A program made the translations under genes and the position numbers. DNA of 64,000 bases. Source: Saccostrea echinata (Eukaryota). The stretch lies in the NCBI RefSeq assembly GCF_033153115.1, contig NW_026889774.1, positions 23,126,001-23,190,000 of the forward strand, written 5' to 3'. This document shows, piece after piece, positions 23,618 to 50,315 of this stretch; within the stretch, counting starts at the first letter, position 1, and the number at the start of each line of letters is the position of its first letter. The notes under the pieces are model-generated. The model saw nothing but the letters and a program-made list of their open reading frames with translations, was not told where the DNA came from and searched no databases.

Positions 23618-26394
23618 TCATTTCTGCTTTGAATGTTTCTTGCTCTTCCTCTTTACTTTTCTGTTTCTTCTTCTTTCTTTCTTTTTCTTCTTTTCTGGAA
23701 AAAAAGTTTGATTTTACAACAACAAAATATTTAAAGATAATTTTTATTTTCCTGCAAGAATAAAACAAAATAGCAATACAGAAAGATCCATGTAACATGC
23801 AACTATATCTGTATTGTAATTCCTTCTTTGTCATTAATAAATACCATACATTTTGTGTCATGTATGTCGTCCACGTTACCTTTTTCATCGTAAATATGAA
23901 ATGAAATTAACAGTGAGACATAGAATAGATATCATGGTTATGGGAAAATATGAATTAAATTCTCCCAAAACTTAGTTTTTTGGGGAAAAAATTATTGCAA
24001 CTGAGTTTCCGAGTCTTTTTGAGATAGATTTATATTATGCGGTAAAAGAATCTTTGAAAGCATTATTTAAAAGTATAATAAAATTATTTCTGCATTAGTG
24101 TTTTTTTTTTTTTAAATAAAAACGAATCCTTATTACTTTACTTATATGTTGCTTTAAATCAAAATTAGCGCTAGATAACTTTTTTGACTGTGTGCTATTT
24201 CAAATTCCCGAAATTGTGATTAAACAATTTACTTTTCGAAATATAAATCATCGGATCCAGGAAAGGGTTTTTAAAATTAATTTTTTTTTCAAAACGAAAA
24301 TTTTTAAAATTACAAATACAAATGCACATAATATGGATTTTTGAAAGATTCTAGAATTATGGTTGCAAATATATTTCTACGAATTTTTTTTTTTCTTTAA
24401 AGAAAAAAAATGAGCTAACCTTTCTTCTCAGAATTTAAGGTTACATCGTCCACCACTTCATCACAGATAGGATACCTCTGCTGGTCCCTGCTTAAGACTA
24501 TAGGAATAAAATCGTCATTGACATCAAATTCTTTCTTCGTAGACTATTAGTATACTTATTATTATAACTCTTTTTATTGAATGAAGCCATAATATTGTCT
24601 AAATGAAATCATCTTCTTAAATGCACCGTTCATATTCTATCATTCGAAAACGTTCATTATTTCTTTTACCATGATATAGAATAAATACAAAGGTTTCGAA
24701 GAGAGCTTACATTTCATACAAATAAGAAAACCCTTTTCCACAGAAGTCTCACAAGTTTTAAGAGGCATATAATCTGTTTTGAACTTCAGTTTAACATCCT
24801 TTAATTCGGTAATATTAATTTCTAGATAGCCAGATCCCCTTGATATCTGTTTTAAAACGTTTCCGTGCTGAAGGAAAAGTTCGTCATGTTTTTCGTTGAT
24901 TTCAGACCAGAGAACCCGCAGTGCCACTTTCATTTCAAGATGTTTCCGCTCAGTTTTAAAATTTAAAGAATGAATAGAGTTAGTATAACAATACTTGTAA
25001 TTCCAAGGGAAATTCTGATGACTTCGAACAATTATTGTCTGATCTCCCAGTTCTCGAATCATGACGTCACTGGGGGACCTTTCTAATGTTTCATTTGAAA
25101 TCAAATCGTAGATTTTGGTCTCTACAAAAGAGAAAACAAATATGAATTACAGAAAGTAACAGAAAAGAATTCTAAGCCACATAATTATGGATAATTAAAC
25201 AGATGTAATGTTTCCCTCAATATCATATTAAAGTTTTAATCAAAGAGCGAAATAAGATATGTAAATAATTCAATACAAAGTTCCACTCGTACTTGCCTAT
25301 CCGTTTTACTTTTCAAAAACAGGTAGAACTGACAGAACCAAAAGAATGAATAAAAAACTTTTGACTAGAAAGGTATTAAATAATATTTTATTTTTACTTG
25401 GATTTCTTGAAGACTTTCAACTTGAAACCGATTGTTTGCTTTCAACTAGCGAGAATACACTTAATAATAAGTGCAAAATTCTTATTAATGGCGCATTTTA
25501 AAATTCCGTATATATTCTGTATATATAGCAACAATGTTAGATGTCTGTTAACAAATAACAGAACTTCTCCATGCAAGATCACCGTAGCAGGTGACTGAAT
25601 TGTCTTGCTGCATTTAAGGAGATGTGGAGATCGTGAGAATAAAAAAAACGAAGCAATTAAATCGTGCATAAAGACAGACAAACATGCATAAAAACACAAA
25701 ACTGGTCTTTCAAAAAAAAAAATTACTTTCGTACATTCCCGGAATTAGGATTTTTTTTTTACATGCCATGGTATATATATTCTAAAATCTCAATATAACA
25801 ATGAAAATTTGCTACGATGCATAACCTTTTTTTAAACATCTCATGTTTTTCTCAAACCATTTTTCTTTCCTTTTTCTCCCCTTTCTCGTCTTGATAATGC
25901 AGCTCTTTTCCCACATACAATGGATCGGCGAGTTCCTCAGATCTTCCCTCAGGGCTCTGTAATTGTCTGTGTTAAAATATTTTTGGGTATATCCAGATAC
26001 TTGCATCAGCTGACTCTCGTTTGTACACTTGACATGTAATTCTTTAAAACGTTGTTTCATCCTCACTTTGCCTACAATTTTCAATTCAGGTTTTTTAATT
26101 ATTCTTTTTTATATCAAGGATATTATTGCATGCTGTTTTCTTGTGCATATGTATGTGTTGATTTCTAATATGCCACACAATCTTACTTTTGAATGAGAAC
26201 AATTGAAGGACAACGATGTCTCTTCATTTACCATTGATTATGCTATTAATTAATGTGAATTATATTCAATAACTCTAGAAAACATTATATTTGTGAAGAT
26301 GTACATAGAAAACATCACAATACTCACCTATCATGACAAACAGACAGACTGTCAGTACTTTGAGATTTGCTGCTGAGTACAAAGTAAAGGACAT
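23618..26394 (-). CDS. Gene A: secreted SUEL-like/CUB-like protein with polybasic tail, 292 aa; exons 26394-26328, 26071-25826, 25121-24711, 24497-24420, 23694-23618
   Basis: All four introns phase-1 GT-AG with an open frame: MSFTLYSAANLKVLTVCLFVMI|GKVRMKQ...HCMWEKSC...RCLKK|ETKIYDLIS...RSHQNFPWNY...KGFLICMK|FLSRDQQRYPICDEVVDDVTLNSEKK|EKKKKKERRRNRKVKRKSKKHSKQK*. TATA-like CTTATATAAA ~120 bp upstream of the ATG. Confidence 0.85.
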
Positions 26395-48788: not shown

Positions 48789-50315
48789 ATGAATGGAAAC
48801 TACTTAAGTTTGGTATTATTGTTGGTGGTTATTATCCTGATAGGTAAGGCTCTCGTTCATATAATAGGTGGGACAGTTAACTTTTTTGACAACAATTCAT
48901 CCTGAAGCACGTGACTACTTAAATAGATCAATCTGTCTGCCTTAATCAATGGGGGAAACGTTATCGCGTTTTTAAATTTATCCCCATGCTTTGAGTAAAG
49001 ATTTTTACAACTTATTTTTGCAGTGTTTATTTTTTTCCATCCCATTTAGATATAAATAATTTATGTTCTTTAGACTTTCACATCACGGTTTAATTCATTG
49101 AAAGCTAAGTTTTCTTAACCATTAACATTATTGTCCTTTTAAATTAAGTGCTGTACGTTTCATTCAATATAAATGTTAAAGTTGAAGAAATGGAGCTAGG
49201 CCTAATTTACATTAAATGAAGCTGTGTTCTTACAATTCTAGATGCAAAAGAGTGGTGTGTGGATCATCGACAAAATCTATCTAACTGCCATGAGGTTCAT
49301 TTGTCGTGTAAAAAAGGCTTTGTAATATCGGAAGTAGATATGTACGCCGGAAATAACGACTGTGATCACACCTCAACTTGCAGGGGTCTACCCCCAGAAA
49401 CTCAAGCAGATGTAATGTCTTGTTATTGGAAACAAAACTGCTCCATCAAAATTCCGTCACAATCAATTGTGTTCTTCACAAACACACTTACATTTACTCC
49501 ATACAAACAAAAAGGCAATTGTTTTGTTATGCCGAAGTCATTTCACGTGAAGAAACTATCATGTACCAGTGCCACAGATGTAAGAGACATTTGTTACCAA
49601 AATGGAATGTCAACACTCCGTATACAACACAAGGGCCAAAGCTCAGGGATTATAAGAAGCCACAGTCAAACTCCATGGGACTATCCTGAAAACCAGAAAA
49701 ACTGTAGTTTGACATTTTCATATCCTGTGTTGGATACAGTCTCCTATTACACCCTTTTAACGATTGTTTGGTTAGATATTAATTTTCAAAACAACAATTT
49801 AGTAGTTAGATACTCTAAGAATAAAAGAAAAAGAAGAAAAAATGTGAAGAAAACTCGAAATATAAGTATCCGGGGAATAAAATCATCTAGTGTTTTTATA
49901 GACTTTACAACCAACTGGCGCAAACGTGGAGCAACAGGAAAGGGGTTTGTGATATGTTATCGGCGTATGTAGCTATCTATATATTGTATCATCCTATTGC
50001 ATCAAAGTACGAGCGATTACATCGCATAACTTTAAATCTCGTTTTGTATTTTTTCTAGATAAAGTCATTTCAAAGAGAAGTAAGAAAAAACGTAAAAACA
50101 GTGTAAAAAAGATACAATCACATCAAAATCGACACAGTAAAAAGAGAAGGACTAAAAACAAGGGTAAGAAATTTAGGATAAAGAGAAGAGCGAAGAGAAG
50201 GAAAAAGGATGCTTGCAGATCTGTAATGGAGGATATGGTTTTAGAGGGTGAAACAATTAGCCTTCATGGTGAGTTGTTCATGCCAACATCAACAAAAACT
50301 GTTTTTGTTAAATGA
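48789..50315 (+). CDS. Gene E: secreted SUEL-like/CUB-like protein with long internal polybasic tract, ~344 aa; exons 48789-48843, 49242-49964, 50059-50315 (possible extra splice after 50268)
   Basis: MNGNYLSLVLLLVVIILI|DAKEWC...LSCKKGFVISEVDMYAGNNDC..C..SCYWKQNC...C...LSC..DIC...GIIRSHSQTPWDY...KGFVICYR|HKVISKRSKKKRK...KRRAKRRKKDACRSVMED...*. Phase-1 GT-AG introns. Confidence 0.88.

What the first reader, a model, noticed from the sequence alone, without database searches (positions are those of the whole stretch)
23618..50315. Exon-encoded polycationic tracts with basic cleavage-type sites, positioned differently among paralogs
Seen: the last exon of A (17/25 K+R), C (19/28) and D (11/19) is almost purely basic and follows the C-x-x-V linker. 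In E a ~50-aa basic tract precedes that linker (…KRRAKRRKK-DACRSVMED). The tracts are poorly alignable, so charge rather than sequence seems conserved. Established: exon-encoded basic tails act as heparan-sulfate retention motifs in PDGF/VEGF, and R-x-[KR]-R (RRKR in C; RTKR in D; RAKR in E) is the furin consensus. Inference: the tracts tether the proteins to polyanions (egg coat, mucus, shell, microbes) or are released as cationic peptides.
Basis: partly seen in the sequence, partly recalled or inferred. Interest (0 to 1): 0.7.

Follow-up and report, generated by a model that had tools for sequence, protein, structure and literature searches.

The report
Basic-tailed CUB protein family in molluscs
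An oyster gene cluster encodes predicted secreted proteins, with relatives in other bivalves and snails, whose strongly positively charged stretches likely anchor them to negatively charged surfaces rather than being cut off as free peptides.

Summary
The tracts are real. The K+R counts (17/25, 19/28, 11/19; E 28/50) reproduce. My models equal RefSeq proteins of Saccostrea echinata for E, for D and for C (C from residue 23). Spliced contigs support the basic frame of C (by exon length) and E (direct join). A's tail is conserved in S. cucullata, but the RefSeq model of A stops before it. The carriers are predicted secreted proteins: a SUEL-like domain lacking the sugar-binding motifs, a CUB fold (Z 11.5) and a likely disulfide to the C-x-x-V cysteine. 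They belong to a family of 87 hits, with named members in bivalves and gastropods, for which I found no description; 44 of 60 full-length relatives have a basic tail. Charge looks selected: orthologous tails drift but keep K/R. The furin reading is not supported. Motifs occur at chance (31 seen, 37 expected), A has none, D's lies 3 residues from the end and is lost in S. cucullata, and E's would leave the tract attached. Best reading: a retained electrostatic tether, like the PDGF exon-6 motif; ligand, tissue and binding are untested.

The parts
23618..23694 (-). Gene A terminal (tail) exon, phase 1, 17/25 K+R, no R-x-[KR]-R motif; absent from the RefSeq model of A
   Evidence: conserved in two S. 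cucullata proteins
24420..26394 (-). Gene A exons 1-4 (26394-26328 signal-like; 26071-25826 SUEL-like, net +15; 25121-24711 CUB; 24497-24420 C-x-x-V linker); RefSeq LOC133192974
29712..31107 (-). Gene B, broken copy: CUB exon with stops and frameshifts (31107-30692), A-like exon 4 with lost GT donor, duplicated CUB end (30234-30154), D-like terminal exon without its AG acceptor; no SUEL exon found
35934..36019 (-). Gene C terminal (tail) exon, 19/28 K+R, RRKR and RNRR
36523..41935 (-). Gene C exons 1-4 (41935-41875; 41475-41239; 40671-40270; 36609-36523); RefSeq LOC133192729 starts in exon 2, but a spliced contig includes exon 1
43697..43755 (-). Gene D terminal (tail) exon, 11/19 K+R, RTKR three residues from the C-terminus
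46355..48408 (-). Gene D exons 1-4 (48408-48351; 48175-47900; 47159-46773; 46462-46355); RefSeq LOC133192208
48789..49964 (+). Gene E exons 1-2 (48789-48843 signal-like; 49242-49964 SUEL-like + CUB with a basic loop patch); RefSeq LOC133192207
50059..50268 (+). Gene E exon 3: 50-aa basic tract (28 K+R, no D/E) between Cys257 and Cys312, then the C-x-x-V linker
56795..56853 (+). Gene E last exon, acidic (net -4), two cysteines
58593..61713 (-). Gene F, second SUEL-like + CUB module of a longer relative (61713-61413; 59642-59520; 59181-58962; 58660-58593); ends just after C-x-x-I with no basic tail; upstream exons lie beyond the window
   Evidence: exon edges are my reading, untested

Best explanation
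The tracts are spliced, charge-conserved polybasic segments of predicted secreted SUEL-like + CUB proteins, and they likely stay attached and act as electrostatic tethers that hold the proteins on sulfated or acidic host polymers. Shown: exon structure, CUB fold, SUEL-like ancestry with loss of the YGR/DPC/KYL motifs, and family-wide presence of basic tails with conserved charge. Inferred: secretion (hydrophobic N-terminus, no second hydrophobic segment; no signal-peptide predictor was run); a disulfide between the last CUB strand and the C-x-x-V cysteine, which would make E's tract a closed loop and leave the A, C and D tails hanging free; binding to heparan-sulfate-like glycans, sulfated mucus or acidic matrix; and a non-lectin, protein-binding role of the folded core. 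The position of the tract appears free to move (after the linker, in the loop before it, at the N-terminus or inside the core), as expected of a function that depends on charge.
For: Models match RefSeq. Spliced contigs for C and E. Tail net charge exceeds nucleotide-shuffled controls, mainly by excluding Asp/Glu (0-1 seen, 2.4-6.2 expected). K/R kept in orthologues while identity drops; both differences that run X1 shows in C's tail change a neutral residue to Arg (two sites only). 44 of 60 full-length relatives have a 20-aa window of net +8 or more after the CUB domain, 50 of 60 somewhere, and 80 of 85 hits stay significant with a profile that lacks the tail. Cysteine co-occurrence 43 both, 9 neither, 7 linker only, 1 CUB only. 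CUB fold Z 11.5, rmsd 2.4 over 104 residues. SUEL-like: hhalign 86.6%, E 4.4e-6; Atlas 0.90. Precedent: PDGF exon 6 binds heparan-sulfate proteoglycans by charge (PMC2289277, abstract); K/R regions of flatworm Mlig-ap1 are blocked by heparin in seawater (PMC6410801, passages); oysters have expanded HSPG families (PMC7103635, abstract).
Against: No binding, tissue or localisation data at all. The RefSeq model of A has no tail. F and 16 of 60 relatives lack a strong tail. The cores are already basic (pI 9.4-9.7 without the tail exon; SUEL-like exon net +14 to +17 in A, C, D), so the tail may add to binding rather than supply it. The hits were collected with a profile that included tails, which favours tailed members. 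Cysteine co-occurrence is inflated by relatedness, and the model coordinates could not be inspected.
Confidence: 0.55

Rival explanations
1. The intact protein uses its basic tract and basic core to stick to microbial surfaces as an opsonin or antimicrobial factor, rather than to host matrix.
For: Mature proteins have pI 9.8-10.1 and net +29 to +39. Tandem expansion with fast turnover is typical of defence genes (own knowledge). True SUEL/RBL lectins of bivalves bind bacteria (PMC10817417, abstract and passages).
Against: The RBL sugar-binding motifs are missing (DPC 0/55, KYL 0/55). One-to-one orthologues persist between Saccostrea species and, for E, in Ostrea. No expression data.
Confidence: 0.16
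2. The proteins are building blocks of a secreted material (mucus, cement, periostracum, egg or shell matrix); the tracts condense with acidic partners during packaging or curing.
For: K/R-rich regions do cohesive work in the flatworm adhesive Mlig-ap1 (PMC6410801, passages). Cysteine-rich, secreted-type architecture with all named members in molluscs.
Against: The tracts are short (19-50 aa) and not repetitive. The oyster settlement-gene paper mentions CUB only in metalloproteinases (PMC6337334, passages). No proteome hit was found in print.
Confidence: 0.14
3. A furin-type convertase cuts at R-x-[KR]-R and releases the tracts as cationic peptides.
For: C has motifs near the start of its tail in both species (release of 21 aa at +12, or 18 aa at +11). 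An R-x-K-R near the end of E's tract is present in S. echinata, S. cucullata and O. edulis. 19 of 60 relatives have a motif in the tail.
Against: 31 motifs seen against 37.1 +/- 5.1 expected; 19 tails against 20.0 expected. None in A, or in S. cucullata A and D. D's cut would release 3 residues. E's cuts release pieces of net -2 or -5 and leave the tract on the body. Tails are only 4-14% hydrophobic, unlike typical amphipathic antimicrobial peptides (own knowledge).
Confidence: 0.1
4. The tracts are a by-product of purine-rich DNA or of mis-called exons and have no selected function.
For: Tail DNA is 72-89% purine. 19 K/R-rich windows occur in six frames of the window. The RefSeq model of A lacks the tail, and A has an upstream acceptor at 23751 that would give a stop after one codon.
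Against: Spliced contigs for C and E, conservation in orthologues, charge above shuffled controls, and tails across bivalves and gastropods.
Confidence: 0.05

Closest known systems
PDGF-A/B exon-6 retention motif (PMC2289277, abstract); VEGF-A long isoforms (recalled)
   Same: A short, separately encoded K/R-rich C-terminal segment on a disulfide-bonded secreted protein; charge-based function.
   Different: No PDGF/VEGF domain. Tail skipping is not shown here (only suggested by the tail-less RefSeq model of A). The tract moves position within the family, and heparan-sulfate binding is untested.
CUB-domain proteins (Kremen, C1s, MASP, TSG-6, neuropilin, PCPE-1, spermadhesins)
   Same: Residues 137-262 of the E model match CUB domains at Z 9.2-11.5; D's model at Z up to 9.8. 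4 of 74 relatives scanned pass the Pfam CUB cut-off.
   Different: 14-24% identity; A-E escape Pfam. An extra cysteine on the last strand, an N-terminal SUEL-like partner, and the acidic calcium-ligand position is Asn or His in A-E (signature recalled).
SUEL / rhamnose-binding lectin domain (PF02140)
   Same: Cysteine spacing and profile match; D and E keep all eight cysteine positions.
   Different: YGR, DPC and KYL motifs absent; A and C keep only four cysteines and carry a basic patch instead.
Mlig-ap1 flatworm adhesive protein (PMC6410801, passages)
   Same: K/R-rich regions flanking folded extracellular domains, working by charge in seawater.
   Different: More than 3,600 K/R-rich residues against 19-50 here; different domains; no homology tested or claimed.

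Membership tests
CUB domain | Jelly-roll beta-sandwich of about 110 residues matching solved CUB domains | tested here: met
   Model pLDDT 83; top 20 VIA-align rows are CUB-containing entries, Z 9.1-11.5
CUB domain | Pfam PF00431 above gathering score | tested here: not met
   No hit for A, C, D or E; met by 4 of 74 relatives
Calcium-binding CUB subset | Tyr-Glu-Asp-Asp ligand signature (recalled) | tested here: inconclusive
   One Asp kept in 48 of 56 (Asn in E); Glu position is Asn or His in A, C, D, E by a weak alignment to PCPE-1, E 0.03
SUEL / rhamnose-binding lectin | Eight-cysteine domain of about 100 residues homologous to PF02140 | tested here: inconclusive
   hhalign 86.6%, E 4.4e-6 against 27 oyster SUEL domains; Atlas 0.90 with 192 shared features; best Pfam hit E 8e-4, below cut-off, in 1 of 74; the domain was not folded and searched alone
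SUEL / rhamnose-binding lectin | YGR, DPC and KYL sugar-binding motifs (PMC10817417) | tested here: not met
   DPC 0/55 and KYL 0/55 in the family against 19/27 and 22/27 in SUEL; [YF]G[RK] 7/55 against 27/27
PDGF/VEGF-type retention motif | Polybasic segment on its own exon | tested here: met
   A, C, D terminal exons; in E the tract shares exon 3 with the linker
PDGF/VEGF-type retention motif | Isoforms with and without the segment | tested here: inconclusive
   Listed contigs of C and E include it (tables cut); RefSeq A lacks it while S. cucullata A has it; four O. edulis E isoforms all keep it
PDGF/VEGF-type retention motif | Binding to heparan sulfate and matrix retention | not testable with these tools
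   needs protein
Furin-processed peptide precursor | Conserved R-x-[KR]-R upstream of the released peptide, above compositional chance | tested here: not met
   possible only in C
Secreted protein | Cleavable signal peptide, no transmembrane segment | tested here: inconclusive
   N-terminal 12-aa hydropathy 2.5-3.7, best later 19-aa window 0.6-1.15; no signal-peptide predictor available

The most novel reading that the evidence does not exclude
An undescribed, widespread molluscan family of secreted matrix-tethered ligands: a lectin fold that has lost its sugar site, joined to a CUB domain, with an exchangeable polycation module. Paralogues gain, swap or move this module (free tail, disulfide-closed loop in E, tail-less form of A) to set how far each protein spreads from its source, an independent parallel to PDGF/VEGF isoform retention.
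Probability: 0.2. Interest if true: 0.7.

Novelty: new variant of a known kind. Interest (0 to 1): 0.42.

Why it matters
Polybasic retention tails are a known device, so the tracts alone are not surprising. What is new is the carrier: a family of at least 80 clusters at 50% identity, largely invisible to Pfam, with named members in oysters, a pearl oyster, a freshwater mussel, a clam, abalone and periwinkle, all annotated as uncharacterized. If the tether reading holds, this cluster is a natural series (free tail, looped tract, tail-less form, swapped tail exons) for testing how charge fixes secreted proteins at seawater salinity. K/R-rich ends would also be under-sampled in trypsin proteomes of shell, mucus and cement.

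Tried and rejected
Pfam on single exons and on full proteins A-E: nothing meaningful. PDB sequence search: 0 hits with 11 sequences; only weak CUB hits at E 0.03 and above with 56. The first fold (D, 11 sequences) was poor, pLDDT 46. The N-terminal domain was not tested by fold search because CUB filled the lists. Run search: no RNA holder listed on record; five runs guessed as RNA. Repeat-derived contigs crowded the read tables, so D's last junction is not visible. No read data were obtained for A. The last homologue search with the wide alignment returned only 4 proteins. Genome searches with A's CUB exon, E's exon 2 and one distant relative found no convincing copy outside this cluster (one weak hit with stops on C12; lower bounds). 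No earlier findings of this scan. No paper describing the family in six searches; supplements and most subscription papers are not searched, and proteome tables there could hold members. The AATAAA in A's last intron was considered as an intronic poly(A) site and set aside: one such word in 725 AT-rich bases is expected by chance. A nuclear or nucleolar signal was considered and set aside because all four genes begin with a hydrophobic leader. The maximum-likelihood tree output failed; only a FastTree tree with a weak backbone was used. No complex prediction was run.
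Full report
1. Setting. The window is AT-rich animal DNA (GC 0.28-0.41) at G000:C25:23126001-23190000. Proteins identical to its exons are RefSeq products of the oyster Saccostrea echinata: LOC133192207 (E), LOC133192974 (A), LOC133192729 (C) and LOC133192208 (D), all 'uncharacterized'. My exon models give E letter for letter, D letter for letter with the acceptor at 46462, C from residue 23 on, and A up to residue 267. All introns in the four models are phase 1.

2. 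The observation. The counts reproduce: A 17/25, C 19/28, D 11/19, and 28/50 in E before the linker cysteine. K/R-rich frames are common in this DNA (19 windows of 20 aa with 10 or more K+R in six frames), so splicing matters. Four of five listed runs were laid on C, D and E; they are only guessed to be RNA, but their contigs skip introns. One contig covers C's tail exon and exon 3 with 89 letters between. That equals the 87-nt exon 4 plus the 2 unaligned first bases; the shorter donor would give 52. This fixes the basic frame by length; the exon-4 piece itself is not in the cut table. Contigs of two runs join 49964 directly to 50059 in E and run on past 50269, so E does not end at 50315. For D a contig joins exons 2 and 3 and has 177 further letters whose place is not listed; the tail rests on RefSeq models in two species. 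For A there are no read data. The RefSeq model stops at Gly268, which is what reading through the exon-4 donor gives, while two S. cucullata copies end in a matching tail (15/24 and 16/24 identical). A may therefore have a tail-less form or a mis-annotated end.

3. What carries the tracts. A profile of 11 sequences found 87 proteins at E 0.001 or better among 1.84 billion representatives. 80 of the 85 new ones remain significant with a profile cut to the core without tails. Of 10 looked up, 5 had names: Haliotis asinina, Sinanodonta woodiana, Littorina saxatilis (two) and Pinctada imbricata; Mya arenaria and Ostrea edulis come. Most hits are unnamed, so the range is at least bivalves and gastropods, not shown to be mollusc-only. 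With 56 sequences E folds at pLDDT 83, and residues 137-262 match CUB domains (Kremen Z 11.5, rmsd 2.4, 104 aligned; C1s 11.4; TSG-6 11.1; spermadhesin 9.2). The N-terminal domain aligns to 27 SUEL domains from the same genome at 86.6%, E 4.4e-6, while the CUB part as control scores 0.5%; the Atlas gives SUEL clusters at 0.90. The YGR, DPC and KYL motifs that characterise rhamnose-binding lectins (PMC10817417, passages) are missing (DPC 0/55, KYL 0/55), so this is not filed as a lectin. A and C keep four of the eight cysteines, the pairs 2-8 and 5-6 of the SUEL topology as I recall it.

4. The C-x-x-V linker. The cysteine of the last CUB strand (52 of 56) and the linker cysteine (aligned in 51 of 56) are family constants. 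Among 60 relatives they occur together in 43, are both absent in 9, and occur singly in 7 and 1 (Fisher p 7e-6, inflated by kinship). D has no other cysteine in its CUB exon. A disulfide is the likely reason. The stretch between the two is 45-53 residues only in E and its orthologues; the longest elsewhere is 27. E's tract would thus be a closed loop, modelled as two helices, and the A, C and D tails would hang beyond the bond.

5. Charge is what is kept. Tail DNA is purine-rich, but shuffling it gives net charges of 9.0, 8.9, 2.8 and 12.3 against 16, 18, 10 and 28 observed (P 0.015, 0.003, 0.001, 0.0001). Against S. cucullata the A, C and D tails are 57-67% identical and the cores 80-90%, yet K/R positions stay basic in 15/17, 17/19 and 9/11. 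E's tract is 83% identical there; against O. edulis it is 40% identical with net +27 against +26. For the family count I kept 60 of the 85 new hits, dropping 15 under 250 aa, 2 over 700 aa, 4 with weak core scores and 4 whose CUB end was not found. Of the 60, 44 have a 20-aa window of net +8 or more after the CUB domain and 50 have one somewhere; 12 have one in the body, near the N-terminus or inside the core. The collecting profile included tails, so these shares may be high. Tail exons also turn over. The broken copy B has an A-like exon 4 but a D-like 3' end (scores 100 and 101 against shuffle maxima of 26 and 32), while the 3' flanks of A, C and D are unrelated to each other. A, C and D form one clade (96), apart from E, on a tree with a weak backbone and long branches. 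F, a longer relative in the same cluster, has no tail.

6. The furin idea fails. A tail of this composition contains R-x-[KR]-R by chance with probability 0.41 (A, none seen), 0.92 (C), 0.83 (D) and 0.65 (E). Across 60 tails, 31 motifs are seen against 37.1 +/- 5.1 expected. D's RTKR is three residues from the end and reads SAKR in S. cucullata. E's RIKR and RAKR lie at the far end of the tract, so a cut frees a piece of net -2 or -5, which the inferred disulfide would still hold. Only C could shed a basic peptide. Against my reading: C has such a motif in both species, though shifted, and an R-x-K-R near the end of E's tract is found in all three oysters. The tails are 4-14% hydrophobic, a poor fit to membrane-active peptides by my own knowledge.

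7. Mechanism. The most likely reading (0.55) is a retained electrostatic tether on host polyanions, as for PDGF exon 6 (PMC2289277, abstract only). K/R regions can work this way in seawater and are blocked by heparin (PMC6410801, passages), and oysters have expanded HSPG families (PMC7103635, abstract). Binding, ligand, tissue and secretion are all inferred. The cores are basic even without the tail exon (pI 9.4-9.7), so the tail may only add avidity. Rivals are microbe binding by the intact protein (0.16), a structural secretion (0.14), peptide release (0.10) and a neutral by-product (0.05).

8. Novelty. The device is known. I found no description of the family in six searches, which cover open PubMed Central and bioRxiv main text only; in PMC6337334 (passages) CUB appears only in metalloproteinases. 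Of the other papers I saw search listings and abstract openings only. Verdict: a real feature, a new variant of a known kind, with moderate interest (0.42) that rests more on the unrecognised family than on the tracts.

Noticed in passing
window 48408 (-) and 48789 (+): D and E are head to head with start codons about 380 bp apart, so they may share a promoter region.
   Followed up: no
window 29712-31107 (-): Broken copy B is a mosaic: A-like CUB and linker exons, a second copy of the CUB end, and a D-like terminal exon and 3' flank.
   Followed up: yes
window 58593-61713 (-) and L009 about 7640-7930 (-): Gene F looks like a two-module (SUEL-like + CUB, twice) relative; one exon is 64% identical to P0063, and another SUEL-like exon lies about 8 kb beyond the window end. 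No basic tail.
   Followed up: partly
window 24420 (-) and 36523 (-): The exon-4 donors of A and C read Gly-stop if unspliced, so retaining the last intron would give a tail-less protein; the RefSeq model of A has this end.
   Followed up: partly
window 25826-26071 (-), 41239-41475 (-), 49242-49964 (+): Second basic patches inside the folded domains: in the SUEL-like exon of A and C, and in a CUB loop of E.
   Followed up: partly
window 16411-17892: Tandem array of about eight copies of a 174-bp unit, 92% matches.
   Followed up: no
window about 36900-37500, 39000-39500, 45600-46240, 59900-60730: Related interspersed repeat fragments with high contig depth, some with open frames; they look like retroelement remnants by recall, but have no Pfam hit.
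   Followed up: partly
L016:5822-8839 (+), about 31-34 kb before the window start: A 1006-codon open frame with four C2H2 zinc fingers; it resembles klumpfuss-type factors by recall only.
   Followed up: partly
P0057 and P0069 (Littorina saxatilis): Two family members with near-consecutive accession numbers and the same longest-contig length, suggesting a tandem cluster in a gastropod too.
   Followed up: no
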